A model generated the notes under the pieces. The model was not told the DNA's origin. It was given only the letters and a program-made list of their open reading frames with translations, and ran no database searches. A program made the position numbers and the translations under genes. A stretch of DNA of 64,000 nt from an uncultured Gammaproteobacteria bacterium (GTDB taxonomy: Bacteria; Patescibacteriota; Patescibacteriia; Patescibacteriales; UBA12075), in NCBI GenBank assembly GCA_964459725.1, contig CAYWNT010000006.1:4569-68568 (forward strand), in the 5' to 3' direction. Shown piece after piece: positions 5,357-53,485 of the stretch; positions within the stretch are counted from its first letter, which is position 1; every line of letters begins with the position of its first letter.

Positions 5357-5533
5357 TTACCTTGAAGAATGTAGTATTCCCATATAGGAATCGGCGGTTG
5401 AGGAATTTCTAGTTGAGTTATCGCATTGACCTTGTGGTAAGCTTATTTTTCCACCTTTTGGTGGTTCCTTTTCACTAGCAGTCTTTTCAGCGCTACTAAT
5501 GTTTGAACTATTCTTTTCTTTGGCGCCAGGCAT
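5357..5533 (-). CDS. Small hypothetical protein (58 aa), Shine-Dalgarno-led
   Basis: Below the ORF-track cutoff. Minus-strand ATG (5531-5533) is preceded by aaaggagaatgtc. Translation is MPGAKEKNSSNISSAEKTASEKEPPKGGKISLPQGQCDNSTRNSSTADSYMGILHSSR, which is low-complexity. Confidence 0.4.
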   Translation of the reverse strand: MPGAKEKNSSNISSAEKTASEKEPPKGGKISLPQGQCDNSTRNSSTADSYMGILHSSR

Positions 5534-5688
5534 GACATTCTCCTTTGTTTTTGTTGTTGTCCTTGGTCCGTGAGGGTGTTATACTTCTTTTTTAAAATTT
5601 TAAATTTTACGCATTTTCCCGTTGAACAACCAGGGTCGAATGATTTTTCATTCTATCTTATTATATTATTAATTACCATATTCTGTCA

Positions 5689-38592: not shown

Positions 38593-38617
38593 ATATTTTA
38601 AAATAGTTTATAATACA

Positions 38618-38666: not shown

Positions 38667-38671
38667 CACAC

Positions 38672-42062: not shown

Positions 42063-43178
42063 ATGAGGAACGACAATAAAAAACCAGGTTATCACGAAGG
42101 TGATAAATGGTTAATTATTTCTATATTTGTAATTTTGGTATTCGGGCTAGTGAGTCTTTCGAGTGCATCATCAGTGGTTGCATATGACAAGTTCGGAGAT
42201 GCTTATTATTATTTCAAGCATCAATTATTCGGACTCGGAATAGGGCTCGTTGCATTTTGGTTTTTTGCCTCAACTGATTATCGGCGATGGAAGAAGTTTG
42301 CCGTTGGCTTTCTGCTGTTTTCGATTATATTGCTTTTACTAGTTTTTATACCTGGATTGAGTGCATCTTACGGCAAAGCCAGGAGTTGGATTAATGTTTT
42401 TGGCTTTTCTTTGCAACCCTCGGAATTTGTGAAGTTGTCATTTCTGCTTTATTTGGCGGCCTGGCTTGAAGCCAAGAAGAAGGATCTCTACGATGTGTAC
42501 CAGGGGATTGGACCATTTATGGTCGTGCTTGGTTTTGTAGCTTTTTTAATGATACTTCAGCCTGACATTGGAACCCTGTCTATCCTCGGTATTACATCTC
42601 TGATTGTGTATTTTGTGGGTGGAGGAAGCAAGAGGCATATTTTGCTTATTATGCTTTTTGGGATTCTGGCTTTTGGGATAATGGTGCAGCTCAAACCCTA
42701 TCAGCTAAATAGATTCAAGTGCATGATTGATCCAACATATAGCGCTAATGATATTTGTTATCAGATCAACCAGTCATTGATTGCAGTCGGCTCAGGAGGT
42801 TTTCTAGGGAGGGGACTGGGGGCGAGTAGACAGAAGTTTATGTACTTACCAGAAGTGTCAGGAGATTCGATTTTTGCTATCATAGCGGAGGAGACTGGAA
42901 TGGTGGTCAGTGTTTCTCTGATTGGACTCTATATGTTCTTATTTTATCGTGGATACATTATCGCACAGAACGCTCCAGACGATTTTGGTAAAATCCTGGC
43001 AATTGGTATTGTCAGTTGGATAGTTGTTCAGGCTATGATTAATATTGGAGGAATAATAGGGGTAATGCCGATGACCGGAGTGCCTCTACCACTCATAAGC
43101 TACGGCGGCTCTGCAATACTTACTGCTCTGGCTGCCCTTGGTGTGCTTGTAAACATTTCTAAGCAGACTATTAAGTAG
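42063..43178 (+). CDS. ftsW: SEDS-family peptidoglycan glycosyltransferase (FtsW/RodA)
   Basis: QPSEFVKL, LQPDIGT, LPEVSGDSIFAIIAEETG, GVPLPLISYGGSA. Called ftsW only because it follows mraY; RodA cannot be excluded. Confidence 0.85.
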   Translation: MRNDNKKPGYHEGDKWLIISIFVILVFGLVSLSSASSVVAYDKFGDAYYYFKHQLFGLGIGLVAFWFFASTDYRRWKKFAVGFLLFSIILLLLVFIPGLSASYGKARSWINVFGFSLQPSEFVKLSFLLYLAAWLEAKKKDLYDVYQGIGPFMVVLGFVAFLMILQPDIGTLSILGITSLIVYFVGGGSKRHILLIMLFGILAFGIMVQLKPYQLNRFKCMIDPTYSANDICYQINQSLIAVGSGGFLGRGLGASRQKFMYLPEVSGDSIFAIIAEETGMVVSVSLIGLYMFLFYRGYIIAQNAPDDFGKILAIGIVSWIVVQAMINIGGIIGVMPMTGVPLPLISYGGSAILTALAALGVLVNISKQTIK

Positions 43179-43234
43179 ATAATCTGATAATTGCAGCATT
43201 AGCACAAAATTATATTTAAAAATAAAATAAGTCT

Positions 43235-43729
43235 ATGCAAGAAGTAAAATTAAATGTCCGGGTTATTACACTCACAGTTATTATCACAGTCATCATTATG
43301 GGTGGAGGTTTTTATTACTTTCAAAAAAGTACAATATTGGCAGGATGTCCTGTTTCTGAAAGCACGAACGAAGAAACATCCGCAGAGATGGCTGCGCCTG
43401 TTTCACAAAAATCATTAGTTGAATATTATAAAACACAGTTGGATTTTCACACGTCGGGAGAAGATAACAGCTTTAAAAGAAAATCACCAGAAGAATTGGG
43501 ATTAAAAGAGATAACTACAGTAGGGGTTTTGTGTCCAGAAAATCCGGATGGACCTTGTGGTTTTGACTTAATTATTGTATCAAAAGAGACATTACATTCA
43601 GGAATTCAAGAATTTTACTTTGCGTACATGGGCGGAGTCGGCTACAATTACTTTGGTCCATTTACTGATGATCTTGAAAGACTAGTTGATGAAAGTAAAT
43701 ACATTGAAGCACTTAAAGAAGTTTATTAA
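43235..43729 (+). CDS. Hypothetical membrane-anchored protein (164 aa)
   Basis: One N-terminal TM span. No family recognised. Confidence 0.55.
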   Translation: MQEVKLNVRVITLTVIITVIIMGGGFYYFQKSTILAGCPVSESTNEETSAEMAAPVSQKSLVEYYKTQLDFHTSGEDNSFKRKSPEELGLKEITTVGVLCPENPDGPCGFDLIIVSKETLHSGIQEFYFAYMGGVGYNYFGPFTDDLERLVDESKYIEALKEVY

Positions 43730-43771
43730 AAAATAATATAATTAAAATTTTGTAGCGTATAAAGAAAAAAG

Positions 43772-43801
43772 CCTCTGCATAATCCGAAGATTACGCAGAG
43801 G
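43772..43801 (-). terminator. Rho-independent terminator (minus-strand U-tract; may act bidirectionally)
   Basis: cctctgcataatc (43772-43784), cgaa loop, gattacgcagagg (43789-43801), 13 bp with one mismatch. The preceding A-run on the plus strand gives a U-tract for the minus-strand small-gene operon. Confidence 0.75.
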
Positions 43802-43844
43802 TTGTATTACTTAATAGGTGTATTTTGCAAAGTAAGGGCAAATT

Positions 43845-44066
43845 TTACATTCTAAGTAATTGCGGTACAGGTGTCATTATATGGCCATTTTTGGCTAATT
43901 GCCATAGCGCTTGAAAGCTCACGGCAATGGACAATGTTGTGCCAGATAAACAAGCACCAATCGTTATTGTCGTTATTGAATCAAATATAGCAAGGGCTAA
44001 TAACAACAACATAAAACTGACAGCTATAGAGCCAGAAACTAGAATTCTAATTGCGTATTTTCTCAT
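43845..44066 (-). CDS. Small two-TM membrane protein (73 aa), SD-led
   Basis: ccaaaaaggaggtaagagATG. Hydrophobic sequence. Overlaps the end of the upstream 55-aa ORF. Confidence 0.65.
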   Translation of the reverse strand: MRKYAIRILVSGSIAVSFMLLLLALAIFDSITTITIGACLSGTTLSIAVSFQALWQLAKNGHIMTPVPQLLRM

Positions 44067-44214
44067 CTCTTACCTCCTTTTTGGTAAAGAAGTAAAGAAT
44101 TAATGCCAAGATCCACGGAGACCAGTATAACAATGAAAGCCATACCGAGGGTTGCTGCGTGCTCAAATGAGAATTGTGTTGTGTCGCCAGATATGCCCAT
44201 CCGTAATATGCCAT
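44047..44214 (-). CDS. Small Trp/Tyr-rich membrane protein (55 aa), SD-led
   Basis: Below the track cutoff. tcaaggagaaaaaattATG. MAYYGWAYLATQHNSHLSTQQPSVWLSLLYWSPWILALILYFFTKKEVRDEKIRN. Confidence 0.5.
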   Translation of the reverse strand: MAYYGWAYLATQHNSHLSTQQPSVWLSLLYWSPWILALILYFFTKKEVRDEKIRN

Positions 44215-44260
44215 AATTTTTTCTCCTTGATTTGTTGAATGAACTCTTTTTGAAACTTAA

Positions 44261-44500
44261 TCACGGAATAACTGAGCTCTGGTTAATTTCTGGATATTTA
44301 TCCATAGAATATTTCGAGCCATCATCTTTTTCTAAATAGTAAGAAACTGCTTTGCCGCCAAGGGGCAGTTCCCATTCCTGTGCGCTAGTTATTTTCATTT
44401 TAATGCTCTCGGCGATATTTTCTGGACTGTTTCCGCTTATAACGCCTAACTGAATTTGTCTGTGCCCACCGTCTACTGATTTATTTAAAATCAAGATCAT
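44261..44500 (-). CDS. Hypothetical protein (79 aa), SD-led
   Basis: caaatggaggtgggttATG. First gene of a three-gene minus-strand unit. Confidence 0.65.
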   Translation of the reverse strand: MILILNKSVDGGHRQIQLGVISGNSPENIAESIKMKITSAQEWELPLGGKAVSYYLEKDDGSKYSMDKYPEINQSSVIP

Positions 44501-44735
44501 AACCCACCTCCATTTGTGATTATTGGTTAATTAGCTGATTTAACATACTATCATAATAATTTTTTAAGTCAAGCTTTATACGATGTTTAATTTAAAAGCA
44601 TACCAATAATAAGGAAAATTATTATAAAATTTTCTTTCACATTCATCCAATTCGGCAGACAGGTTTTTAAAATTCTGATATAATTAGGAGTGTAATTTGA
44701 TTTACAAATTTTTATAATTTTATAAATACAATATT

Positions 44736-45425
44736 ATGCCACACATACATGACAAAATTGATTTTTGTTCAGAGACTTTCATTGTCTACAAAGACACCGT
44801 CCTTCTAAGAAAACATGATAAACTAAAGATTTGGCTTAGTGTTGGTGGGCATATTGAGCTAGATGAGGATCCAAATGAAGCAGCGATAAGAGAGGTGAGA
44901 GAAGAGGTCGGACTAGATGTAGAGCTCTATAGCGAGGAAAATAAGCAACCAGTTTTCAAGAGTGATCTAAAGTCGCTTATTCCACCCCAGTATTTAAACA
45001 GGCACAATATAACAGACGAGCATGAACATGTTGAATTTGTGTATTTTGCAAAATCAAAAACCGATAAGCTACAATTATCTGATACAGAAATAACTGACGA
45101 GTGTAAATGGTTTACAAGAGAAGAGCTAGTCAAAAATGATCATGGCATACCAGGTGATGTTCAGTTGTATGCGTTAGAGGCTCTTGAAAAATTATCAGAG
45201 AATCCTGCAGGTGAAACAGGTTTAAAGAAAGATGTCATAAAAAAAGATGTGTTTGACCGTGAAATTACTCTGTGTAAGAATCTGGCAAAAGAAAATGGCA
45301 ATAAATGTAATTGGGGATCCTGCGAGAAGTGTGGCGTATTGCCGCTCCTGATCAAACTTCATGAGGGTCGTTTACTTGAAGACTCTGATGAAATAGTTGA
45401 AGTGAAAAATAAAACAATCTTTTAA
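44736..45425 (+). CDS. NUDIX hydrolase with a Cys-rich C-terminal extension
   Basis: Nudix box GGHIELDEDPNEAAIREVREEVGL. The C-terminal ~60 aa carry C-x11-C-x4-C-x2-C (CKNLAKENGNKCNWGSCEKCG). Confidence 0.85.
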   Translation: MPHIHDKIDFCSETFIVYKDTVLLRKHDKLKIWLSVGGHIELDEDPNEAAIREVREEVGLDVELYSEENKQPVFKSDLKSLIPPQYLNRHNITDEHEHVEFVYFAKSKTDKLQLSDTEITDECKWFTREELVKNDHGIPGDVQLYALEALEKLSENPAGETGLKKDVIKKDVFDREITLCKNLAKENGNKCNWGSCEKCGVLPLLIKLHEGRLLEDSDEIVEVKNKTIF

Positions 45426-45431
45426 AACTTC

Positions 45432-45512
45432 GGCGGGTTTATCCACTGGGAGGTGGGCAGGCATTCCATAGCACATTCCATAGCACATTCTACCTGTGGC
45501 AGAATTGTGTTG
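45432..45512. repeat. GC-rich intergenic repeat, copy A
   Basis: ggcgggtttatccactgggaggtgggcaggcattccatagcacattccatagcacattctacctgtggcagaattgtgttg. Aligns with 49229-49297 with about 6 transitions/substitutions and a 12-nt internal duplication (cattccatagca x2). Confidence 0.85.
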
Positions 45513-45598
45513 TTAAAATTCTTTGCGCACTAATTTTCGCCTAATGGTGCTTATTTGATTACGTCAATAACATAAATAAATTATTTCAAATAAAAAAA

Positions 45599-45632
45599 CC
45601 GCCGACCTAGATAGTAATCTAGGGCACGGCGG
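45599..45632. terminator. Strong stem-loop with an A-run upstream (U-tract only on the minus strand)
   Basis: ccgccg (45599-45604) pairs with cggcgg (45627-45632), with an inner stem cctagat/atctagg. On the minus strand it reads as a canonical terminator, but no minus-strand ORF precedes it. Confidence 0.45.
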
Positions 45633-45755
45633 AGTTTGGAGAAAAATTTTTCACCTTACAGAGGAGCGTCAGGTCGGCAAAAAAATTTCTTTTTCTCATA
45701 TTCCTCTCATAATATAAAACCTATAATATAATTACTTTAAAAGTAATTTTAACTT

Positions 45756-46427
45756 ATGCAAATTCTCATCATAGAAGACGAACAGCGTCTGGCGCAAAGT
45801 ATTCAAAAAGGACTAAAGGCGGAAAATTTTTCTGTAGATGTTGCTAATGACGGCGAACAAGGATTAAAAATGATGATCAATAAATACGATTTGATTATTC
45901 TTGATCTCATGCTGCCAAAAGTGAGTGGGTTGGAAATCTTAGAACATTTGCGAACAGAAAAAAACAAAATCCCAATATTAATCTTAACTGCCAAAGGCTC
46001 AACAGATGATAAGGTGAAAGGGCTTAATTTGGGGGCTGATGATTATTTAGCAAAGCCATTTGATTTCGAAGAGCTATTGGCGCGTGTTTACGCTCTTATA
46101 CGCCGTTCAACCAATAGTGATGTGAAATTAAAAATTGACAATTTGGAACTTAATCCACGCAAAAAAGAAGTCACCAGAGCCGGAAAAATAATAAAACTCT
46201 CCGGTACGGAATATAGATTATTGGAATACTTAGTGAGACATCCTCACCATGTCATGAGTGAAACAGATCTTTTGGAGCATGTTTGGGATCATAATTATGA
46301 TGGGCTTTCCAATATTGTTTCTGTGTATATTCGCTACCTTCGAAACAAGATAGATAAACCTTTTACCACAGAAAAACCACTCATTCATACTGTGCGCGGC
46401 TTAGGCTATAAAATTTGCGATAAATAA
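45756..46427 (+). CDS. OmpR-family response regulator (receiver plus winged-helix DNA-binding domain)
   Basis: ILIIEDE...DLIILDLMLPKVSGLEIL...ILILTAKG...GADDYLAKPF and the C-terminal LSGTEYRLLEYLV...TVRGLGYK. Confidence 0.92.
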   Translation: MQILIIEDEQRLAQSIQKGLKAENFSVDVANDGEQGLKMMINKYDLIILDLMLPKVSGLEILEHLRTEKNKIPILILTAKGSTDDKVKGLNLGADDYLAKPFDFEELLARVYALIRRSTNSDVKLKIDNLELNPRKKEVTRAGKIIKLSGTEYRLLEYLVRHPHHVMSETDLLEHVWDHNYDGLSNIVSVYIRYLRNKIDKPFTTEKPLIHTVRGLGYKICDK

Positions 46428-46436
46428 TAAACTCCT

Positions 46437-47687
46437 ATGAAATACACTACCAAAAAAAAATGGCAATTTACTTTTATTTATTTTTTTCCTGTTTTTATTA
46501 TTTTTTCCTGTTTCTCAATTTTTATCCATTATTCTTATTCAGAAAAAATATACGAAATTGATGACACTATCTCAGAAATGGCTTTTGGCACTAGTGAGTA
46601 TAGAGAATTTAATGAATATAAAGAATACAAAGAAGCACCCAATACAATTATTGCTGAGCAGGACTGGAACACTCTTTCTATGGAGGAAATTGATAAAAAA
46701 CTTATTGAAAATGGATTGGAACCTATTGGCAACTCAAAGGACCCTTTTTATTATCTAACTCCAAAAGAAATCAAAGAAAAATTAAACAAAGAAGCTATTT
46801 TTTGGGGCTCAAATCCTGATGGAGGTGTTGTCTACACAGAAGTAGGGCATGATCTGCCTTATATTTCCTTGGAGCAAATTGAAGAAGTTCAAGACACAAT
46901 TAGTCAATCATCACTTATGACTATTATTGTTACTTTGTTTGGAGTTACTTTGGCGTTTGCGTTTTTAGCTTATTATTTTGCCGGCAAAGCCATTAAACCA
47001 CTCCAAGATTCCATTGAAAAGCAAAAACAATTTGTCTCTGATTCTTCCCATGAAATAAAAACACCCTTGGCGCTGATAAAATCAGAGGCTGAAGTTTTAC
47101 TGCGAGATAAAAATTCGTCAATTAATGAATATCAAAGTTTTGCCAAAAATACAGTAGAAGATGTCAATCGTTTGGACACTTTGGCTGATAGTCTTTTATG
47201 GCTGGCTCAATTGGATCAGAAGAAAAAAGATTTTGCTTTGGAAAAAATAAATCTCAGTGCGCTGATTCAAAAAATAGCCAACTCCTTCGGGCAAGTAGCG
47301 CTTAAAAAGAAAATTACTATTAATGCAGACATTGAAAAGGATATTTTTGCTTCCGCAAATAGAGATGCTACTTATCAAGTATTGAATATCATTCTTGATA
47401 ATGCTCTAAAATTTAGTCCGGAAAAAAGTAAAATTGACATTTACATCAAACAAGAGCTCCAATCAATTATAGTGAATATCAAGGATTGTGGTATTGGTAT
47501 TTCCAAAAAAGATTTAAGTCATATCTTTGATCGTTTTTACCGTGCCTCAGAAGATCGTCATGAAAAAGGTTATGGTTTGGGATTAGCCATTGCCAAAGAA
47601 GCTATGCTTGCTCAAGGCGGCAATATCAAAATCAAGAGCGCATTAAAAAGAGGAACGATCGTAGAATTGCGGTTTAAAAAAGGGTAA
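46437..47687 (+). CDS. Sensor histidine kinase (two TM spans, ~125-aa extracytoplasmic domain, HisKA, HATPase_c)
   Basis: H-box FVSDSSHEIKTPLALI, N-box NIILDNALKFSP, G-boxes DCGIGI and GYGLGLAIAKE. Confidence 0.9.
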   Translation: MKYTTKKKWQFTFIYFFPVFIIFSCFSIFIHYSYSEKIYEIDDTISEMAFGTSEYREFNEYKEYKEAPNTIIAEQDWNTLSMEEIDKKLIENGLEPIGNSKDPFYYLTPKEIKEKLNKEAIFWGSNPDGGVVYTEVGHDLPYISLEQIEEVQDTISQSSLMTIIVTLFGVTLAFAFLAYYFAGKAIKPLQDSIEKQKQFVSDSSHEIKTPLALIKSEAEVLLRDKNSSINEYQSFAKNTVEDVNRLDTLADSLLWLAQLDQKKKDFALEKINLSALIQKIANSFGQVALKKKITINADIEKDIFASANRDATYQVLNIILDNALKFSPEKSKIDIYIKQELQSIIVNIKDCGIGISKKDLSHIFDRFYRASEDRHEKGYGLGLAIAKEAMLAQGGNIKIKSALKRGTIVELRFKKG

Positions 47688-47714
47688 TTTTTTATCAAAA
47701 TTCAAAAAAGCAAA

Positions 47715-47746
47715 AACTCTCATCTTCTACTCATGGGAGTTTTTTT
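47715..47746 (+). terminator. Rho-independent terminator after the kinase gene
   Basis: aactctcat (47715-47723) pairs with atgggagtt (47733-47741), followed by a T-run to 47746. Confidence 0.7.
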
Positions 47747-47955
47747 ATAATAATGGTATTCATTAATTAATCAAATCAAGCCATGGAGAGGTGACAAAAA
47801 ATAATCATAAATTCTCACCTTGCTCTCATGCAGTATTTATTACAATGAATATATTCAATGATAAAAAAGATTAAAACAACCAGCGCGCAAACTTTTTCCT
47901 TTTTCATCAGAGAAACAAACTATTTTGATTATTTTGTAAAATTAGTGAAAGCTCT

Positions 47956-48024
47956 ACCAAGGCTATTGGTCCAAAATAATTTATCATTACATTTTACAAG
48001 AAATCAAAAACTTTTTAATTTAAT
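47956..48024 (+). promoter_or_regulatory. Conserved upstream element, copy 1 (before the 98-aa gene)
   Basis: accaaggctattggtccaaaataatttatcattacattttacaagaaatcaaaaacttt... matches 48401-48468 with 2 substitutions and 1 single-nt indel over about 58 nt. Confidence 0.7.
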
Positions 48025-48048
48025 TTAATTTATTATGAAAACAACAAA

Positions 48049-48345
48049 ATGAAAACTACAGCCATAATAACTGTCATATCATTTTTGATACTAACAGCAA
48101 TTATCGTATTAATCAGATCTGTTTCAACAGATAATTACAACCCAGAAAAACCAGGCTATAAAGAGCTGTCTGAGTATCAAAAAGGAAAGACTAACGAATA
48201 TAAAGAGATGCCTGGGGATCTAAAAGGAAAAACTAACGAATATAAAAAGATGCCTGGAAATCCAGCAGGAAAAACTACCGAATATAAAGAGCTGTCTGGG
48301 AATGATGAATATACAGAAAAAGGAGGCATTACTAATTACCGATAA
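48049..48345 (+). CDS. Membrane-anchored/secreted repeat protein (98 aa) with three 14-aa GKTNEYKEMPG-type repeats
   Basis: N-terminal signal-anchor MKTTAIITVISFLILTAIIVLI. Three tandem 42-nt repeats at 48181-48306. The N- and C-termini are homologous to the 202-aa neighbour. Confidence 0.7.
   Translation: MKTTAIITVISFLILTAIIVLIRSVSTDNYNPEKPGYKELSEYQKGKTNEYKEMPGDLKGKTNEYKKMPGNPAGKTTEYKELSGNDEYTEKGGITNYR
48181..48306 (+). repeat. 3 x 42-nt in-frame tandem repeat
   Basis: KGKTNEYKEMPGDL / KGKTNEYKKMPGNP / AGKTTEYKELSGND, with near-identical nucleotide units. Confidence 0.85.
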
Positions 48346-48400
48346 AAGATTGAAAAGCAATTGATAAAAAGCGCGAAGAGCTATATGGGTATAAAAATAT

Positions 48401-48468
48401 ACCAAGGCTATTAGTCCAAAATAATTTATCAGTACATTTTCAAGAAATCAAAAACTTTATAATTTAAA
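48401..48468 (+). promoter_or_regulatory. Conserved upstream element, copy 2 (before the 202-aa gene)
   Basis: accaaggctattagtccaaaataatttatcagtacattttcaagaaatcaaaaacttt... See copy 1. Confidence 0.7.
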
Positions 48469-48479
48469 TTACAATATTT

Positions 48480-49088
48480 ATGAAAACTACAAAAAAAACT
48501 ACAGCTATAATAGCTATCACATCACTTTTAGTGCTAACATCACTTATTGTATTATCCAGATCTGTTTTGGCAGATAATTACAAACCCGAAAAACAAGATA
48601 TAGTATTTTCTGAAAACTATTCCGAAGAAGACTTTGATACAGGATTTTATTTTTCCCCTTCTGAAGATATAACCGAGGGTATTATCTCAGAAGAAGATTG
48701 GAACACTCTTTCCATGAAACAAATTGACGAAAAATTAAAAGCTGCAGGAATAGAAACAGAACTTGTTGATCATCGCGATCCGCTTTACAACCTAACTCCG
48801 GCCGAGATGGATAAATTGACAGAAGCTCAGTGGGAGGAAATTGATAAGAAGTTGATTGAAATTTATGGAGAAGATTTTTTTTACGAAGATTTTGAATGCG
48901 AAGATGAAGATTGTGAAATTGAATTTTATAAATCAGCAGGAGAGGTAAGCAGCACTAATTTTTATTCTCATCCAACTCAATACAGCACAACTGACGGTAA
49001 AAATTACGTTGAATATACTGGTGACGAAGAAATAACCGGAGTTAACGAATATACAGAAAAAGGAGTCAATACTTATTATCGAAAATAG
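48480..49088 (+). CDS. Membrane-anchored acidic protein (202 aa), paralogous to the kinase sensor domain
   Basis: Signal-anchor MKTTKKTTAIIAITSLLVLTSLIVL. IISEEDWNTLSMKQIDEKLKAAGIETELVDHRDPLYNLTPAEMDKL matches kinase residues ~71-116. A second WEEIDKKLIE copy is present. The tail NEYTEKGVNTYYRK matches the 98-aa protein. Confidence 0.75.
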   Translation: MKTTKKTTAIIAITSLLVLTSLIVLSRSVLADNYKPEKQDIVFSENYSEEDFDTGFYFSPSEDITEGIISEEDWNTLSMKQIDEKLKAAGIETELVDHRDPLYNLTPAEMDKLTEAQWEEIDKKLIEIYGEDFFYEDFECEDEDCEIEFYKSAGEVSSTNFYSHPTQYSTTDGKNYVEYTGDEEITGVNEYTEKGVNTYYRK

Positions 49089-49113
49089 ATTAACCAACCG
49101 TGCTGATTTAAAA

Positions 49114-49141
49114 AACCTCTCACTTTGTGTGGGAGGTTTTT
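49114..49141 (+). terminator. Rho-independent terminator after the 202-aa gene
   Basis: aacctctcac (49114-49123) pairs with gtgggaggtt (49129-49138), followed by a T-run. Confidence 0.75.
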
Positions 49142-49173
49142 GACATAGATACATTCTCTATAAAATGGAATTT

Positions 49174-49297
49174 CCTCCCAAGGCGGACAGGCACTCTCCA
49201 TGGCGACGGGCAGGCCCTCCTGCTGCGCGGCGGGTTTATCCACCGGGAGGCGGGCAGGCATTCCATAGTATATTCTACCTGCGGCAGAAGTGTGTTG
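49174..49297. repeat. GC-rich intergenic repeat, copy B (longest copy)
   Basis: cctcccaaggcggacaggcactctccatggcgacgggcaggccctcctgctgcgcggcgggtttatccaccgggaggcgggcaggcattccatagtatattctacctgcggcagaagtgtgttg. The 3' part equals copy A and the middle part equals the core at 3517-3544. It looks like about four degenerate 22-24-nt units starting GCGG(G)CAGGC. Confidence 0.85.
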
Positions 49298-49307
49298 ATA
49301 AATAAAA

Positions 49308-49331
49308 AAGGCCATCGAATTCAATGGCCTT
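49308..49331 (-). terminator. Rho-independent terminator for the minus-strand small-gene unit
   Basis: aaggccat pairs with atggcctt. The A-run on the plus side gives a U-tract on the minus strand. Confidence 0.7.
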
Positions 49332-49361
49332 GTACTTAAAATATTACGAAGGTAGTTTTAT

Positions 49362-49553
49362 TTAACCGCCTTCTTTGATAATCAGCGCAATCGCTTTTGC
49401 GTTTTTGTCATCTGGGGTGGTTTTTTTTAGAAAAGCTTCCAGCTCTTCAATTGTAAGATCTCCCAGGAGCACGAAAAATGCTCCAAAAACACTCATGGGA
49501 GTTGCCCCAGGCTCTCCGTTAACACTCTGCCGAAAAGCATCTCTTATTTTCAT
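49362..49553 (-). CDS. Hypothetical protein (63 aa), SD-led
   Basis: aaaaacaggagggagttATG (start 49553, inside track ORF 49362..49577). MKIRDAFRQSVNGEPGATPMSVFGAFFVLLGDLTIEELEAFLKK... Confidence 0.6.
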   Translation of the reverse strand: MKIRDAFRQSVNGEPGATPMSVFGAFFVLLGDLTIEELEAFLKKTTPDDKNAKAIALIIKEGG

Positions 49554-49605
49554 AACTCCCTCCTGTTTTTCCTTCAATCAACGGAAAGAAATATAGTTAT
49601 TTGGG

Positions 49606-49806
49606 CTAGTCGAGCGGTGTTTCACCGATTGAAACTGCTTCGTCGAATTCAACTTCGTCTCGCATCTGATCAACGAGTTTCTGAGAAATTTTAGCAGCTA
49701 CAGACATTTTTACCTTGTCTCTCTTTGTAATTGTTACTTTATGCTTTAGTAGAAATTCAATTACTTTGTCATAATCATCATGGCAGCAAGTGTCAATATA
49801 TCGCAT
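49606..49806 (-). CDS. Small protein (66 aa), SD-led; paralogue of 49965..50171
   Basis: acaaggaggataaatATG. MRYIDTCCHDDYDKVIEFLLKHKVTITKRDKVKMSVAAKISQKL... Confidence 0.65.
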   Translation of the reverse strand: MRYIDTCCHDDYDKVIEFLLKHKVTITKRDKVKMSVAAKISQKLVDQMRDEVEFDEAVSIGETPLD

Positions 49807-49913
49807 ATTTATCCTCCTTGTTGTGCGCCTTATCAATAATTTTGGTTTATTATTCTTTTTAGCATAAGATTTGAAAAAAATCAATACATTTGTACGGATT
49901 CACTATAAAAAAA

Positions 49914-49942
49914 CCGCCTCTATACTTTTCAGCATGAGGCGG
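49914..49942 (-). terminator. Rho-independent terminator between the two paralogues
   Basis: ccgcctc (49914-49920) pairs with gaggcgg (49936-49942). The A-run at 49906-49913 gives a minus-strand U-tract. Confidence 0.75.
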
Positions 49943-49964
49943 GAGCAGTTGGTCTGCTTAGTCC

Positions 49965-50171
49965 TTATTGTTGCCAGAGCGGAGCTTTTCCAATGGTAAA
50001 GTTGTGCATGAGCTTAATTTCGTTTTCCATCCGGTTAGTAAGGCTCTTAGGCACCTTCGCGGCTATTGTCATCCTTAGCTTGTCTCTTGCGGCAATTGTT
50101 ACATTGTTTTTTTGCAAAAAACTGATTACTTTTCCAAAATCTCCATCTGAGCAAGTGTCAAAGTACGTCAT
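49965..50171 (-). CDS. Small protein (68 aa), SD-led; paralogue of 49606..49806
   Basis: atatggagggtaatcATG. MTYFDTCSDGDFGKVISFLQKNNVTIAARDKLRMTIAAKVPKSL... Confidence 0.65.
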   Translation of the reverse strand: MTYFDTCSDGDFGKVISFLQKNNVTIAARDKLRMTIAAKVPKSLTNRMENEIKLMHNFTIGKAPLWQQ

Positions 50172-50278
50172 GATTACCCTCCATATTCTTTTACTTCTTT
50201 ATTGTTATACGATAAACAACAGCCACTCTTATCAGAATTATGATAAACGACTGTTAGTAAAATGGTGTTACTCCTTGG

Positions 50279-50419
50279 TTATTTTTGTTTTTTTTGAAAT
50301 TTTACAATTTCTCCGTTATTAACCACAACTTCTATTTTGTTGGTGAAGTGAGCCATTGGGATAAAAATAATACATGCTGCAATCGATACAGCAAAAGTAA
50401 AAAGGACCAAGTTTTTCAT
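50279..50419 (-). CDS. Small signal-peptide-like protein (46 aa), SD-led
   Basis: Below the track cutoff. caaggggggaaacaATG. MKNLVLFTFAVSIAACIIFIPMAHFTNKIEVVVNNGEIVKFQKKQK. Confidence 0.45.
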   Translation of the reverse strand: MKNLVLFTFAVSIAACIIFIPMAHFTNKIEVVVNNGEIVKFQKKQK

Positions 50420-50551
50420 TGTTTCCCCCCTTGTTTTATTATCTATAATTTATCACTCAGCTCGAAGAAAGTCAAATGAGGGCCTTGTTTTTATGAATTA
50501 GGCCGAAATTAAGCGGAAAAACATTATGTGAAGTGCCGACTAGATTGGTGA

Positions 50552-50579
50552 CTTGCAAAACTTCTTGTTATTATTAGAA
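50552..50579 (+). promoter_or_regulatory. Putative promoter of the four-ORF cassette
   Basis: TTGCAA (50552-50557), 16-nt spacer, TAGAAT (50574-50579). It lies upstream of, and outside, the left inverted repeat. Confidence 0.4.
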
Positions 50580-50606
50580 TTTAGTGATAAATTAAAAGTG
50601 TTCTTA

Positions 50607-50630
50607 AAAAATTAAAAAATCAGAATTGGG
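50607..50630. repeat. Left arm of a perfect 24-bp inverted repeat
   Basis: aaaaattaaaaaatcagaattggg is the exact reverse complement of 51611-51634. Confidence 0.9.
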
Positions 50631-50655
50631 CTTAAAACATAAGAGGAGGTTAATT

Positions 50656-50916
50656 ATGTCTGATGAAATAAATAGTTTTCTTTTAAAGAGAGTTTTGAGT
50701 GCGAAATTTATTGGATTCCCGACTGATAATGCAACCATTGAAAGAGTAAAAACACTGTTGCCAGCTTCATCCAGACATTTGCTTTGTGAAACAGATCTGC
50801 AAATTGGAATTGACGATGATGTTTTAGATGATATTAATATGACTCTTTCTTTGCACGATGGCAGACTGGATTCATTTTCAGAAAAAATTAGCTCAGTGCT
50901 TAAAGAAAGGAAATAG
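50656..50916 (+). CDS. Hypothetical acidic protein (86 aa), SD-led; cassette ORF 1
   Basis: ataagaggaggttaattATG. The track ORF opens at TTG 50626. Confidence 0.65.
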   Translation: MSDEINSFLLKRVLSAKFIGFPTDNATIERVKTLLPASSRHLLCETDLQIGIDDDVLDDINMTLSLHDGRLDSFSEKISSVLKERK

Positions 50917-50933
50917 CAGAAGGAGATAATGTA

Positions 50934-51152
50934 ATGGGAAAGTTGAAAGACTTAAATCTGTCAGGCAAGACTGCTGTTCTCGGCAAGGACGAATCAGAGG
51001 TTGGAAGTTTAAGTGATAAAGGTTGGAGGCGAGTCGTTAGGTGTGGGAGCTTTTTAGGATGGCTTCCGCCGACATGGACAGGGGATAATACCACTATGCA
51101 CACAACTGAAACAGCAGTTGAGGCACAGAGATTTTATGAGTCCAGGTATTAG
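50934..51152 (+). CDS. Hypothetical protein (72 aa), SD-led; cassette ORF 2
   Basis: agaaggagataatgtaATG. Trp-rich (GWRRVVRCGSFLGWLPPTWTG). Locally high GC. Confidence 0.65.
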   Translation: MGKLKDLNLSGKTAVLGKDESEVGSLSDKGWRRVVRCGSFLGWLPPTWTGDNTTMHTTETAVEAQRFYESRY

Positions 51153-51202
51153 AAACGCTTTTTGTCAGTCATAACAAATTTTATCCAAACAGAGAGGGCA
51201 CC

Positions 51203-51343
51203 ATGAAAGGAATAATTAGTTTTTTCAAAGAGTTCTTTATGGAAAAAGAATTGCTGCGCTGTCCAAAGTCGGGCGAGCTGGAAATAGATCCTGATGAACT
51301 CACAGATTGCGTTGATTGCTCTAGAGAATATTATGGAAAATAA
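51203..51343 (+). CDS. Small Cys-containing protein (46 aa); cassette ORF 3
   Basis: Below the track cutoff. agagagggcaccATG. MKGIISFFKEFFMEKELLRCPKSGELEIDPDELTDCVDCSREYYGK. Confidence 0.4.
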   Translation: MKGIISFFKEFFMEKELLRCPKSGELEIDPDELTDCVDCSREYYGK

Positions 51344-51377
51344 AAAATGAACTTAGTAATAAAAAGTGGGGTGTGTT

Positions 51378-51575
51378 ATGAGTATAAGAGAAAAGAAAAC
51401 AATTATTGCATTTTTGCCAGTAACCTTGCTTGTTCAACTTTTCATAGTAATTTTATCTGTGACGTATTATGGTGAAACTCCGAAAATTTCCGTATGCTAT
51501 TTTATTGGCGCATCATTAGTTTTGTGGTTTCTCGCCCTGGTAGACCCCCTAAGAATTGAAAGGGGCGACGGATAG
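51378..51575 (+). CDS. Small two-TM membrane protein (65 aa); cassette ORF 4
   Basis: ATG 51378 (the track ORF opens at GTG 51366). MSIREKKTIIAFLPVTLLVQLFIVILSV... Confidence 0.55.
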   Translation: MSIREKKTIIAFLPVTLLVQLFIVILSVTYYGETPKISVCYFIGASLVLWFLALVDPLRIERGDG

Positions 51576-51585
51576 TATTTAAAAA

Positions 51586-51611
51586 GCGTGAACGCAATCC
51601 TGCGTTCACGC
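51586..51611 (+). terminator. Perfect 10-bp GC-rich stem-loop at the cassette end
   Basis: gcgtgaacgc (51586-51595), loop aatcct, gcgttcacgc (51602-51611). Its last base is the first base of the right inverted-repeat arm. Confidence 0.6.
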
Positions 51612-51634
51612 CCAATTCTGATTTTTTAATTTTT
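51611..51634. repeat. Right arm of a perfect 24-bp inverted repeat
   Basis: cccaattctgattttttaattttt is the exact reverse complement of 50607-50630. Confidence 0.9.
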
Positions 51635-51674
51635 ATAATTAGATTAATATAATTAATAATTAATCGAAAAAAAT

Positions 51675-51956
51675 ATGAACAAATTTTGTCAAAGTTGCGG
51701 CATGCCGCTAAAAAAAGACCCTCAAAACGGAGGGACTGAAGCAGACGGAATAAAGAACCTTAAGTATTGCTCTTATTGTTATGAGGGCGGTGAGTTCAAA
51801 AGTCCAGAAATAGACACTCCGGAAAAAATGCAGAAATTTTGCATTGCGAAAATGAAAGAGCAGGGAATCCCAAGATTCATTGCCTGGGCTTTTACTCGAG
51901 GAATTCCAAGACTGGAAAGATGGAAAAAGAATGAGCCGTCTGATAAAAATAGCTAG
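51675..51956 (+). CDS. Zinc-ribbon domain protein (Zn_ribbon_2-like)
   Basis: CQSCGMPL...YCSYCYEGGEF N-terminal CxxC...CxxC. No SD. Confidence 0.7.
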   Translation: MNKFCQSCGMPLKKDPQNGGTEADGIKNLKYCSYCYEGGEFKSPEIDTPEKMQKFCIAKMKEQGIPRFIAWAFTRGIPRLERWKKNEPSDKNS

Positions 51957-52100
51957 GTAAATCCATTCAGCAAGATAGACTTTACAAAATAAAAAAGCAT
52001 GATAATGTCATAGATCAATCTATAAGCATTAATATAAATGTTTATATTTGGATATTTTTGCATTGAGTTTTATTATTCAAAAAATCCAAAGGAGGGGAAA

Positions 52101-52325
52101 ATGGCTGCAAAAAAATGTGCGGCTTATGTAATTGGATATTGGCGGAAAGGTCCTCGTTATTATGTTTGCACCGGTGAAAAACATGTGAAGGTAGACTACG
52201 ATGACGATATCGATCAAGTTTGCTATGCCAGAATAATAGGTTCATGTGACGGAATTGTATGCAAAGCGCCAAAACCGTTTACACCTAACCATATCAAATT
52301 CGCAGCTTTTACTGCCAAGTGGTAG
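52101..52325 (+). CDS. Hypothetical Cys-rich protein (74 aa), SD-led
   Basis: ccaaaggaggggaaaATG. Start inside track ORF 52038..52325. Confidence 0.6.
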   Translation: MAAKKCAAYVIGYWRKGPRYYVCTGEKHVKVDYDDDIDQVCYARIIGSCDGIVCKAPKPFTPNHIKFAAFTAKW

Positions 52326-52413
52326 CAGCTGTAACTGGAGGTATTGACTTGCTCAATGTCTCCTTTTTTATTTAAATAATCAATGATTATATATTTGTTT
52401 TTTAAAAAGAAAA

Positions 52414-52441
52414 AGAGCCTTGCATTGTTCTACAAGACTCT
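52414..52441. terminator. Bidirectional stem-loop between convergent small genes
   Basis: agagccttg pairs with caagactct (one mismatch). A-run upstream and T-run downstream. Confidence 0.5.
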
Positions 52442-52456
52442 GTTTTTTGAAAGATT

Positions 52457-52690
52457 TTAGTCTTTTTCCCAGTCAACTGGTAACCCATACTCTGGCCAGT
52501 AGACTCGAGGAATAACCTCAATTTCTTCGTCTGGATAAATATTTATATCATCCTTGGTGCGAGAGATAACTCCATTAACTATTGGAAAATGAAAAGTAAC
52601 TTGCCCCCATGCGGTAGCATAGTAAAACTTACCCTTGTGTACAAAAAAGCCATTTTGAAGATTAGCAAATGGCATCTTTTTGGTGGGCAT
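52457..52690 (-). CDS. Hypothetical protein (77 aa), SD-led
   Basis: ctaaaaaggaggattgaaATG. Start inside track ORF 52457..52768. Confidence 0.6.
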   Translation of the reverse strand: MPTKKMPFANLQNGFFVHKGKFYYATAWGQVTFHFPIVNGVISRTKDDINIYPDEEIEVIPRVYWPEYGLPVDWEKD

Positions 52691-52952
52691 TTCAATCCTC
52701 CTTTTTAGAACATCTATGTTAAAATTAGTAATTTGCGTGCAAATATTAACTATGATAACATTTTGCATTTTTTATGCCTTTCAAAATTGTAGCACGAAAT
52801 TAAACTTGTATCAAGTTAGGGAAGATTCAAGTTTTGTTATTTTTTTGCCTCTTTTGTTTTTAATGTTATAATTGAAAAGGCAAGACAATTAATCGTCCAA
52901 AAGGGGGTCAATAGGAAGATTTTGAAAAATATTCTTAATATAACCAAACATT

Positions 52953-53477
52953 ATGACACACCTAAATATTGAAATAAAGGCAAAATCAAATAACCATGAT
53001 AAGATTAGGGAAATTTTAAAATTGAAAAACGCTGAGTTCAAGGGCATTGATCATCAAATTGATACTTATTTTAAGGTAGATTTTGGTAGATTGAAATTAA
53101 GAGAAGGAAAAATTGAAAATTTTCTCATTCATTATCAACGAGAGAATAAAGAAGGGCCAAAACAATCAGATATAACCTTGTTTAAGTCCGAACCTGAATC
53201 TTCATTGAAAGAAATTTTAACAAAAGCATTAGGCGTTCTGGTTGTAGTTGATAAGAAAAGAGAAATATATTTTATTGATAATGTGAAGTTTCATATAGAC
53301 ATAGTTGAAAATCTGGGAACGTTTGTGGAGATTGAGGCAATTGACAATGATGGAAGTATTGGTAGGGATAAACTACTGGAACAATGCCAGTCTTTTCTTG
53401 ATTTATTTAATATTTCAAAGGAGGATTTGGTTTCAGTTTCTTATAGTGATTTGCTATTGGATCAAGATAGCACATAG
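52953..53477 (+). CDS. CYTH-domain protein / class IV adenylate cyclase (CyaB-like)
   Basis: N-terminal NIEIKAK (ExExK) signature, RLKLRE, FHIDIVENLGTFVEIEA, C-terminal SYSDLL. About 175 aa, as for CyaB-type enzymes. Confidence 0.8.
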   Translation: MTHLNIEIKAKSNNHDKIREILKLKNAEFKGIDHQIDTYFKVDFGRLKLREGKIENFLIHYQRENKEGPKQSDITLFKSEPESSLKEILTKALGVLVVVDKKREIYFIDNVKFHIDIVENLGTFVEIEAIDNDGSIGRDKLLEQCQSFLDLFNISKEDLVSVSYSDLLLDQDST

Positions 53478-53485
53478 AATAAATT

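What the first reader, a model, noticed from the sequence alone, without database searches (positions are those of the whole stretch)
43845..52690. Sharp Shine-Dalgarno dichotomy: SD-less core genes versus about 13 strongly SD-led ORFs under 100 aa
The 20 nt upstream of the housekeeping and envelope starts I checked show no GGAGG-like motif. Examples are greA, lysS, serS, mreB, mraY, ftsW, murG, murC, pilB/C/M, the transporters, the GTs, and also NUDIX, RR, HK and CYTH. In contrast the small ORFs at 43845, 44047, 44261, 49362, 49606, 49965, 50279, 50656, 50934, 52101 and 52457 all have AAGGAGG/GGAGGG/GAGGAGG 4-8 nt before the ATG. The ORFs at 51203 and 51378 have weaker versions, and 5357 lies outside the island. 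They also look GC-richer than their surroundings. This argues that the small ORFs are real genes. It also suggests they were acquired from, or are tuned to, a different translational regime (phage, plasmid or host-derived), or form a specially translated regulon.
Basis: seen in the sequence. Interest (0 to 1): 0.7.

Follow-up and report, generated by a model that had tools for sequence, protein, structure and literature searches.

The report
Shine-Dalgarno-led small genes in SD-less bacterium
In a tiny-genome (CPR/Patescibacteria) bacterium whose housekeeping genes start translation without the classical ribosome-binding (Shine-Dalgarno, SD) motif, a 10-kb insertion in the cell-wall gene cluster carries 13 small, real genes that each have a textbook motif, and for one of these gene families the motif is conserved wherever the family occurs.

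Summary
Of 50 long-ORF starts, 48 show no SD pairing (median dG +0.2 kcal/mol). An unbiased scan finds 13 SD-led ORFs of 46-86 aa. Twelve lie in 43845-52704; a fourteenth ORF (J) is weaker. Shuffled sequence gives 0.07 where 10 are seen.

The region 43.2-53.5 kb is an insertion between ftsW and murG, which are adjacent in most relatives.

The small ORFs are genes. They have positive coding scores and their own terminators. Paralogs E and F belong to a family of about 48 clusters under purifying selection, with a confident ferredoxin-like fold.

All 10 family members with DNA available keep a strong SD, in CPR-like contigs whose neighbouring genes lack one. The SD is therefore selected, not a relic.

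- "Under 100 aa" is a window artefact. The flanks hold SD-led genes of up to 487 aa, also in clusters.
- "GC-richer" is real but small (0.396 vs 0.360).
- The small ORFs use core-like codons.
- No phage, plasmid or host donor was found.

The organism's 16S anti-SD could not be reached. Best reading: two initiation modes coexist, with SD reserved for an accessory, island-borne gene class.

The parts
43179..53485 (.). Insertion of about 10.3 kb between ftsW (42063-43178) and murG (53486-54583). It is a mosaic of SD-less accessory genes and two clusters of SD-led small genes.
   Evidence: ftsW and murG are adjacent (gaps of about 15-170 nt) in 7 relatives. None of the island genes has a homolog at that place. 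There is no integrase, tRNA or flanking repeat. The stretch is identical in three independent assemblies.
44261..44512 (-). ORF C, 79 aa, with SD TGGAGGTG. It is the first gene of the C-B-A operon.
   Evidence: dG -10.6, spacer 4. Coding score +0.20. No Pfam, PHROG or PADLOC hit.
44047..44229 (-). ORF B, 55 aa, predicted membrane peptide, with SD CAAGGAGA. It overlaps the start of A by 20 nt.
   Evidence: dG -8.5, spacer 7. It is the weakest candidate, with coding score -0.04.
43845..44080 (-). ORF A, 73 aa, predicted membrane protein, with SD AAAGGAGGTA.
   Evidence: dG -12.9, spacer 4.
43772..43801 (-). Intrinsic terminator that closes the C-B-A operon.
   Evidence: Stem of 13 bp followed by a T run.
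50279..50433 (-). ORF G, 46 aa, with a hydrophobic N-terminus and SD CAAGGGGGG. A promoter-like TTGACT-17-TAAATT lies at 50475-50447.
   Evidence: dG -11.0, spacer 5. Promoter scan.
49965..50183 (-). ORF F, 68 aa, a member of the E/F small-protein family, with SD TGGAGGG. Its own terminator lies around 49905-49950.
   Evidence: dG -9.8. 45% identical to E. AF2 pLDDT 87 with a beta-alpha-beta-beta-alpha-beta fold.
49606..49820 (-). ORF E, 66 aa, a member of the E/F family, with SD CAAGGAGGA.
   Evidence: dG -11.4. 63% identical to P0016, with synonymous sites saturated (pS 0.89, pN 0.22).
49362..49565 (-). ORF D, 63 aa, with SD CAGGAGGG. It is followed by the terminator at 49308-49331.
   Evidence: dG -10.8. 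Terminator.
50642..50916 (+). ORF H, 86 aa, with SD AGAGGAGGTT. It is the first gene of the H-I-J-K unit.
   Evidence: dG -12.7, spacer 4.
50919..51152 (+). ORF I, 72 aa, with SD GAAGGAGA.
   Evidence: dG -8.8, spacer 7. GC 0.46, the GC-richest of the set.
51190..51343 (+). ORF J, 46 aa, with a weak SD CAGAGAGGG.
51363..51575 (+). ORF K, 65 aa, two predicted transmembrane helices, with an SD-like AAAGTGGGGTG. A hairpin and T tail follow at 51589-51640.
   Evidence: dG -8.2. Sequence read.
52088..52325 (+). ORF M, 74 aa, Cys-rich, with SD AAAGGAGGG. Its terminator is at 52337-52363.
   Evidence: dG -12.1. Terminator.
52457..52704 (-). ORF N, 77 aa, with SD AAAGGAGGA. Its terminator is at 52414-52441.
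   Evidence: dG -11.6. Terminator. The single-sequence AF2 model has low confidence.
51675..51956 (+). SD-less small gene L, 93 aa, Zn_ribbon_2. It is an internal control showing that small size alone does not require an SD.
   Evidence: dG +0.1. PF12674.
44736..49088 (+). SD-less accessory genes inside the island. They are NUDIX 44736-45425, response regulator 45756-46427, histidine kinase 46437-47687, and secreted paralogs 48049-48345 and 48480-49088. CYTH at 52953-53477 and a 164-aa protein at 43235-43729 are further SD-less island genes outside this range.
   Evidence: All have dG > -1.1. Pfam assignments.
5357..5546 (-). Isolated SD-led ORF outside the island, 58 aa, low-complexity, with SD AAAGGAGA.
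   Evidence: dG -8.7. Coding score +0.12.

Best explanation
The organism is a Patescibacteria (CPR) bacterium. Its vertically inherited genes initiate translation without a Shine-Dalgarno sequence. Their leaders are A/U-rich and G-poor, usually with U at -1.

A minority class of genes uses a canonical strong SD with a 4-7 nt spacer. These genes are accessory, mostly without detectable relatives, and arranged in clusters.

In the window this class is 13 small genes of 46-86 aa. They lie in at least six short, separately terminated transcription units. The units sit inside a 10.3-kb insertion between ftsW and murG.

The SD is a selected, heritable part of these genes and not a leftover. It follows that the host ribosome can still pair with an SD through its 16S tail. 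Two initiation modes therefore coexist in one cell.

My inference for why: these genes belong to a fast-turnover accessory pool that moves among CPR lineages differing in SD use. A strong SD, together with the gene's own promoter and terminator, gives context-independent, competitive ribosome recruitment. Native genes have shifted to SD-independent initiation.

- **Shown:** the dichotomy, the insertion, the coding status, and SD conservation in one family.
- **Inferred:** a functional anti-SD, the portability rationale, and expression.
For: **Dichotomy**
- 48 of 50 long-ORF starts have no SD.
- 13 SD-led small ORFs are found, 12 of them in 9 kb.
- Shuffles give 0.07 where 10 are observed.

**Lineage**
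- Relatives are Patescibacteria, Parcubacteria and Falkowbacteria MAGs.
- In the relatives, 0 of 160 conserved or partly conserved genes of at least 90 aa have an SD.
- By contrast, 6 of 108 locus-unique genes do.

**Insertion**
- ftsW and murG are adjacent in 7 relatives.
- Other relatives have different inserts at ftsW|murG or murG|murC, some containing SD-led ORFs.

**Real genes**
- Coding score is 0.143, against -0.077 for shadow ORFs (p = 2e-8).
- Terminators follow the transcription units.
- E and F are 45% identical.
- E versus P0016: pN 0.22, pS 0.89.
- The family has 48 clusters.
- The AF2 model has pLDDT 87.

**SD selected**
- All 10 E/F-family genes with DNA available carry GGAG(G) 4-8 nt upstream: E, F, L022, L027, L028, L030, L032, L033, L034 and L035.
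- The rest of their leaders does not align.
- In L028 the family gene is the only one of 22 genes scored there with dG <= -8.
- In L030 it is the only one of 14.

**Class is wider than small ORFs**
- The flanks of the same genome hold clusters of SD-led genes of 99-487 aa.
- SD-led genes are slightly GC-richer, 0.396 vs 0.360, p = 3e-4.

**Small size is not the cause**
- SD-less genes of 91-123 aa exist, for example 51675, 30473 and 48049.

**Hint of a functional anti-SD in the lineage**
- rpsB of relative L009 has AAGGAG while its neighbours do not.
Against:
- Tsurumaki et al. 2022 (PMC9297842) detected the anti-SD motif in only 48% of Parcubacteria 16S genes.
- SD-like motifs are not depleted inside core coding sequence (z about 0 to +2). 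This gives no independent sign that ribosomes here sense an SD.
- Family-level SD conservation could be shown for one family only. The other 11 small ORFs have no relatives to compare.
- Mobility is not demonstrated. The island has no recombinase, tRNA or repeats.
- In L028/L029 the genes of a bona fide recombinase-bearing element lack an SD. "Mobile implies SD" is therefore not a rule.
- No expression data were available.
Confidence: 0.55

Rival explanations
1. Passive relic. The SD-led genes were recently imported from an SD-dependent donor (phage, plasmid, or the bacterial host of this episymbiont). They simply still carry the donor's ribosome-binding sites, which have no particular role here.
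For: - The genes sit in an insertion relative to relatives.
- SD-led genes are slightly GC-richer.
- The flanking 395-aa SD-led gene has GC 0.46 and strongly atypical codon use (z = -5.5).
- The SD-led genes have no relatives in the neighbouring genomes.
Against: - No homolog was found in phage or plasmid records or in viral contigs.
- The pooled small ORFs use core-like synonymous codons (z = -1.0).
- The 395-aa gene has no homolog among 5.8 billion proteins.
- The E/F family keeps its SD across synonymous saturation in ten genes in SD-poor contexts. A neutral relic would not do that.
Confidence: 0.15
2. Dedicated SD regulon. The ribosome's anti-SD is normally unavailable, for example sequestered as in Bacteroidia by bS21/bS18/bS6. 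SD-led mRNAs are then translated only by a ribosome sub-population or under particular conditions, so the SD-led genes form a co-regulated set.
For: - The genome-wide pattern (A-rich, SD-less core leaders) resembles Bacteroidia (PMC9976891 and PMC13000453 abstracts).
- The SD is conserved in a specific family while adjacent genes lack it.
- bS21 is variably present in CPR (PMC9297842).
Against: - Nothing here bears on ribosome composition.
- About a quarter of the genes in 84 kb are SD-led. In Flavobacterium johnsoniae only one gene has a strong SD (PMC13000453 abstract).
- No shared promoter or operator motif was seen upstream of the units.
- rpsU is not in the window.
Confidence: 0.15
3. The purine-rich motif is not read as an SD in this organism, because the 16S lacks the anti-SD as reported for part of the Parcubacteria. 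It serves another purpose, such as mRNA stability or a protein-binding site, or none.
For: - PMC9297842 reports the anti-SD motif undetected in about half of Parcubacteria 16S genes.
- There is no avoidance of SD-like words inside core genes.
Against: - The motif matches the 16S tail complement, has canonical 4-7 nt spacing and always precedes an ATG.
- It is conserved at that spacing in 10 of 10 family members.
- The closest relatives by murG are Falkowbacteria-like. Whether they fall in the uL1-lacking subgroup in which that paper found the loss was not determined here.
Confidence: 0.08
4. Chance motifs upstream of spurious ORFs.
For: - ORF B has a slightly negative coding score, and J has only a weak motif.
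Against: - Shuffles give 0.07 events against 10 observed.
- 13 of 14 coding scores are positive.
- Terminators follow the units.
- The E/F family is under purifying selection and has a confident fold.
Confidence: 0.02

Closest known systems
Bacteroidia-type SD-independent initiation with a rare SD-led gene (rpsU/bS21 autoregulation in Flavobacterium johnsoniae; PMC9976891, PMC13000453)
   Same: - Housekeeping genes lack an SD and have A-rich leaders.
- A minority of genes carry a strong, evolutionarily conserved SD in that background.
   Different: - The phylum is different (Patescibacteria).
- Here the SD-led set is large: 23 of 84 genes in 84 kb.
- It is accessory, mostly without detectable relatives, and clustered in islands. 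It is not a single ribosomal-protein gene.
- Anti-SD sequestration is not tested.
GeneMarkS-2 genome classes B and X (non-SD or weak RBS genomes in which some genes still have an SD RBS; bioRxiv 10.1101/193490)
   Same: A genome whose dominant start context is not SD, with a subset of SD-led genes.
   Different: - That work, as far as I read it, names no CPR genomes.
- It does not link the SD-led subset to islands or to specific conserved small-protein families.
Genomic islands and hypervariable accessory regions
   Same: - The region is an insertion into conserved synteny (the dcw cluster).
- Its content is strain- or lineage-specific.
- Relatives carry different cargo at the same junctions.
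   Different: - There is no integrase, tRNA target or flanking repeats.
- The composition shift is only slight.
- Half of the island's coding length is native-style SD-less genes.
Anti-SD loss in part of the Parcubacteria (Tsurumaki et al. 2022, PMC9297842)
   Same: It concerns the same broad group and the same question: whether CPR ribosomes use SD pairing.
   Different: - That paper reports rRNA features only.
- The present locus argues from the mRNA side that SD pairing is still under selection, at least for some genes in some Parcubacteria-like lineages.

Membership tests
Canonical Shine-Dalgarno ribosome-binding site | Purine-rich motif complementary to the 16S 3' tail (core GGAGG) | tested here: met
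   dG is -8.2 to -12.9 kcal/mol for 12 island ORFs. Eight have a perfect GGAGG.
Canonical Shine-Dalgarno ribosome-binding site | Spacing of about 4-9 nt to the start codon | tested here: met
   Spacers are 4-7 nt in all 13 ORFs, and all starts are ATG.
Canonical Shine-Dalgarno ribosome-binding site | Anti-SD (CCUCC) present at the 3' end of the organism's own 16S rRNA | not testable with these tools
   There is no rRNA in the window, in the 10-kb flanks, or in any fetched locus. The literature shows it is variable in Parcubacteria.
Canonical Shine-Dalgarno ribosome-binding site | Motif conserved among homologs while the surrounding leader diverges | tested here: met
   This holds for 10 of 10 E/F-family genes. 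It could not be tested for the other ORFs, which have no homologs.
Bacteroidia-type SD-blind translation system | Genome-wide paucity of SD with A-rich leaders | tested here: met
Bacteroidia-type SD-blind translation system | Strong SD confined to one or very few genes (rpsU) | tested here: not met
   23 of 84 genes in 84 kb are SD-led. rpsU is not in the window.
Bacteroidia-type SD-blind translation system | Anti-SD sequestered by bS21/bS18/bS6 | not testable with these tools
   This needs the ribosomal protein genes and a structure.
Horizontally acquired genomic island | Insertion relative to conserved synteny in relatives | tested here: met
   ftsW-murG adjacency is seen in L004, L005 and L010-L014.
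Horizontally acquired genomic island | Atypical base composition or codon use | tested here: inconclusive
   For the small ORFs, GC is 0.389 vs 0.363 (p = 0.05) and codon z = -1.0. The signal is clearer only for the flanking large SD-led genes.
Horizontally acquired genomic island | Mobility genes, tRNA target or flanking direct repeats | tested here: not met
Prophage or phage remnant | Phage hallmark genes or homologs in phage genomes | tested here: not met
   PHROGs gave only E >= 0.02. There was no tblastn hit in phage records. Viral contig scans were negative or spurious.
Known anti-phage defence or toxin-antitoxin modules | Match to PADLOC or Pfam models | tested here: not met
   Searches gave only sub-threshold noise.

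The most novel reading that the evidence does not exclude
Parcubacteria-like CPR bacteria run a two-tier translation-initiation system. Housekeeping mRNAs are SD-independent. A conserved class of small accessory proteins, including the 66-aa ferredoxin-like E/F family, is kept under strict SD control. Availability of the 16S anti-SD (ribosome heterogeneity, sequestration, or competition in cells that probably hold few ribosomes) would then gate a whole accessory regulon. This would be a multi-gene analogue of the Bacteroidia bS21 circuit.
Probability: 0.15. Interest if true: 0.8.

Novelty: new variant of a known kind. Interest (0 to 1): 0.55.

Why it matters
How CPR/Patescibacteria ribosomes choose start codons is essentially unstudied. 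These ribosomes lack several proteins and rRNA segments, and in some lineages reportedly lack the anti-SD.

This locus provides mRNA-side evidence that SD pairing is still under selection in an otherwise SD-less CPR genome, but only for a specific gene class.

Three uses follow:
- **Annotation.** A strong SD becomes a reliable flag for real small genes and for accessory islands in such MAGs, where gene callers trained on the bulk of genes will mis-start or miss them.
- **Experiment.** The locus supplies a defined reporter pair, an SD-led and an SD-less leader from one genome, for testing CPR translation.
- **Evolution.** It raises the question of whether an SD serves as a portable expression signal for genes that move between lineages with different initiation regimes.

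Tried and rejected
**Searches that found nothing or failed**
- A concatenated 870-aa query of all small ORFs in the search for homologous proteins returned nothing, not even self hits. It is uninformative and cost one search.
- Pfam, PHROGs and PADLOC on the small ORFs gave nothing above noise.
- tblastn of the concatenated small ORFs against phage and plasmid records gave no match.
- tblastn of the concatenated flanking SD-led proteins against plasmids gave only remote MFS and HD hits, with no donor signal.
- The flanking 395-aa SD-led protein has no homolog.
- The viral scan for N gave one hit. It is a short chance motif inside a 668-aa phage structural protein.
- Viral scans for M, H and the E/F family were negative.
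- The first metagenome scan with the 3-sequence E/F alignment found nothing.

**Attempts to reach the 16S rRNA**
- There is no rRNA in the window, in the fetched loci, or evident in the 10-kb flanks, where only called protein genes are listed.
- Further walking is not possible with these tools.

**Other tests**
- SD-motif avoidance inside core coding sequence: no depletion. The test has low power and I treat it as inconclusive.
- Leaderless hypothesis for the SD-less genes: -10-like hexamers are scattered at all distances in this AT-rich DNA, so the result is inconclusive.
- Function of E/F: Foldseek against PDB gave only generic ferredoxin-like hits (protease propeptides, ACT domains) with E >= 0.03. 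A profile against PDB sequences gave nothing. Weak sub-threshold matches to PF11123 in 3 of 39 members were rejected.
- The AF2 model of ORF N has low confidence.
- The GC-rich repeat as a structured RNA: no Rfam family, and folding z-scores of -1.5 and +0.6.
- Flanking direct or inverted repeats of the island: none.

Full report
**What the window is**

The window is low-GC DNA (about 36%). It carries housekeeping and envelope genes, including a dcw cluster: mraY 40989-42038, ftsW 42063-43178, murG 53486-54583 and murC.

The same sequence occurs at 100% identity in independent ENA, JGI and Logan assemblies, so it is not an assembly artefact.

The nearest species representatives by MurG are at most 55% identical. 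They are MAGs labelled Patescibacteria group, Candidatus Parcubacteria and Candidatus Falkowbacteria. The organism is therefore a CPR bacterium. The window holds no tRNA and no Rfam family, and in particular no rRNA.

**Checking the observation**

I computed duplex energies between the upstream region and ACCUCCUUA.
- 48 of 50 long-ORF starts are weaker than -5 kcal/mol, with a median of +0.2. This includes NUDIX, RR, HK and CYTH.
- The result does not depend on start choice. Only 4 of 51 long genes have a downstream in-frame start preceded by an SD-like word. Each sits inside coding sequence, for example IGIKGVGM in MurC.
- Core starts have a context of their own. They are A/T-rich, G is only 0-14% at -12 to -1, and T occupies -1 in 70%.

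An unbiased scan asked for an ATG start, dG <= -8, 40-119 aa, and no overlap with a long gene. It returns 13 ORFs: 12 in 43845-52690 and one at 5357-5533.
- Energies are -8.2 to -12.9 and spacers are 4-7 nt.
- J (51203) is weaker at -7.0.
- K uses GTGGGG and G uses GGGGGG.
- Eight ORFs have a perfect GGAGG 5-6 nt before the ATG. Outside the island, that pattern with a long open frame occurs only in frame inside long genes.
- Dinucleotide shuffles of the two segments give 0.07 +/- 0.28 such events against 10 observed.

**Are the ORFs genes?**

- A log-odds codon score (in-frame core codons against the other five frames) is positive for 13 of 14 small ORFs. The mean is 0.143. Shadow ORFs of the same size average -0.077 (p = 2e-8) and core 65-codon chunks average 0.215.
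- Intrinsic terminators follow A, D, M, N, F and K. The ORFs therefore form short units: C-B-A, G, F, E-D, H-I-J-K, M and N.
- E and F are full-length paralogs at 45% identity.
- An exhaustive profile search finds 48 clusters of relatives. Nearly all are stand-alone proteins of 61-76 aa.
- E compared with P0016 has 63% amino-acid identity. Synonymous sites are saturated (pS 0.89) and pN is 0.22, which means purifying selection.
- AlphaFold2 on a three-sequence alignment gives pLDDT 87 and a beta-alpha-beta-beta-alpha-beta fold.
- Structure and profile searches give only generic ferredoxin-like matches, so the family is uncharacterised.

**What the region is**

In seven relatives ftsW and murG are adjacent. 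None of the window's 43.2-53.5 kb genes has a homolog at that place. Other relatives carry different inserts at ftsW|murG or murG|murC, and several of those contain SD-led ORFs.

The region is therefore a lineage-specific insertion at a recurrent insertion point. It has no integrase, tRNA or flanking repeats.

It is a mosaic. NUDIX, RR-HK, two secreted paralogs, a Zn-ribbon protein and CYTH have native-style SD-less starts. The SD-led ORFs form two clusters, 43845-44512 and 49362-52704.

**The key result: the SD travels with the gene family**

DNA was obtainable for ten E/F-family genes: E, F, L022, L027, L028, L030, L032, L033, L034 and L035.
- All ten have GGAG(G) 4-8 nt before the start, with dG from -9.1 to -12.3. 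The rest of their leaders does not align.
- The backgrounds range from 31 to 52% GC.
- In L028, from a Minisyncoccia MAG, the family gene is the only one of 22 genes scored there with dG <= -8. This is so although it lies next to an MTase-DndB-serine recombinase element.
- In L030 it is the only one of 14.

Because synonymous sites in the family are saturated, a neutral motif would have decayed. The SD is under selection in SD-poor CPR hosts.

Ten kb on each side of the window in the same genome hold two further clusters of SD-led genes.
- Upstream are a 395-aa protein with no detectable relative, a PL14 lyase lipoprotein, a 487-aa HD_5 protein and a 164-aa protein.
- Downstream are an MFS transporter and four proteins of 99-153 aa.

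Across the 84 kb, 23 SD-led genes are compared with 61 SD-less genes.
- The SD-led genes are slightly GC-richer (0.396 vs 0.360, p = 3e-4).
- GC3 is 0.370 vs 0.331 (p = 0.009).
- Two to three of the flanking genes have atypical codon use. The pooled small ORFs do not (z = -1.0).

In the relatives, 0 of 160 conserved or partly conserved genes of at least 90 aa have an SD, against 6 of 108 locus-unique genes. SD-less genes of 91-123 aa exist, so shortness is not the cause.

**Origin**

No donor could be identified.
- There are no matches in phage or plasmid records or in viral contigs.
- Each small protein is a singleton at 90% identity.
- The most compositionally deviant flanking gene has no homolog among 5.8 billion proteins.
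- The only traceable family lives in CPR-like contigs.

The genes are accessory and inserted. Their SD is maintained by selection rather than inherited passively.

**The unresolved point**

This matters. Tsurumaki et al. 2022 detected the anti-SD motif in only 48% of Parcubacteria 16S genes, mostly missing in the uL1-lacking subgroup (PMC9297842).

Indirect evidence for a functional anti-SD:
- SD conservation in the E/F family.
- An AAGGAG SD on rpsB in a Falkowbacteria-like relative whose neighbouring genes lack one.

Against it, core coding sequence shows no avoidance of SD-like words. That test is weak.

**Comparison with what is known**

SD-less genomes with A-rich leaders are known, namely Bacteroidia and GeneMarkS-2 classes B and X. 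In Flavobacterium johnsoniae one gene, rpsU, keeps a strong SD as part of a bS21 autoregulatory circuit.

The present case resembles that logic, a selected SD in an SD-blind background. It differs in phylum, in the number of genes, and in their nature, which is accessory and island-borne. I found no paper describing SD use in CPR beyond the rRNA observation.

I rate it a new variant of a known kind, of moderate interest. The mechanism (portable strong RBS or gated regulon) is inferred, not shown.

Noticed in passing
window 50607-50636 and 51605-51634: A 30-nt inverted repeat (93% complementary) brackets the H-I-J-K unit. The 5' arm lies just upstream of H's SD. The 3' arm is the T-rich tail after K's terminator hairpin. 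It could be 5'-3' mRNA end pairing, a cassette boundary, or shared promoter and terminator DNA.
   Followed up: partly
window 45431-45530 and 49228-49330 (partial relative near 3520-3545): A GC-rich repeat of about 100 nt (92% identical over 48 nt) lies downstream of NUDIX and of the 202-aa secreted protein. It contains GGGAGG/CCUCCC words. It has no Rfam family, and folding is not better than shuffles (z -1.5 and +0.6).
   Followed up: partly
L024 1-4700 and L025 14696-19127 (same genome, 10 kb on either side of the window): These are two further clusters of SD-led genes, including large ones: a 395-aa protein with no detectable relative (GC 0.46), a PL14 lyase lipoprotein, a 487-aa HD_5 protein, and an MFS transporter. 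SD-led genes therefore come in islands and are not restricted to small ORFs.
   Followed up: partly
L009 12977-13714: In a Falkowbacteria-like relative, rpsB (uS2) has an AAGGAG SD (dG -8.7). The adjacent tsf, pyrH and frr do not. This is a possible conserved SD on a ribosomal-protein gene in an SD-poor lineage.
   Followed up: no
L028 4270-10204 and L029 41-7566: In a Minisyncoccia MAG, the E/F-family gene sits next to an element carrying an N6/N4 methyltransferase, DndB, small ORFs and a large serine recombinase. The element's own genes lack an SD.
   Followed up: partly
window 46647-46700 vs 48681-48734; 47948-48154 vs 48393-48597; 48157-48303: - The extracytoplasmic part of the histidine kinase shares a motif (EEDWNTLSM..IDKK) with the 202-aa secreted protein.
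- The 98-aa and 202-aa secreted proteins are paralogs with duplicated upstream DNA.
- The 98-aa protein contains three 42-nt tandem repeats.
   Followed up: no
window 3481-3504 and 38616-38667: Short arrays of a 14-nt CACATAAC(T/A)C(A/G)TAA-type repeat occur in two intergenic regions 35 kb apart.
   Followed up: no
relatives L006, L007, L008, L014, L019, L020 (between ftsW, murG and murC): The ftsW|murG and murG|murC junctions of the dcw cluster are recurrent insertion points in this lineage. Each relative carries different cargo: a MutT-like protein and a GIY-YIG protein, a DNA methyltransferase fragment, an SPFH protein, and small Cys-rich SD-led ORFs.
   Followed up: partly
window, all core starts: Core start codons have T at -1 in 70% of cases, no G at -1, and A of about 50% at -8 to -2. 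This is a distinct non-SD start context that could be modelled for gene calling.
   Followed up: partly
loci L015-L018 (labelled Saccharibacteria and Doudnabacteria): SD use among long genes differs between CPR lineages. The fraction with dG <= -6 reaches 0.42 in a Doudnabacteria locus and is about 0 in the window's closest relatives.
   Followed up: no
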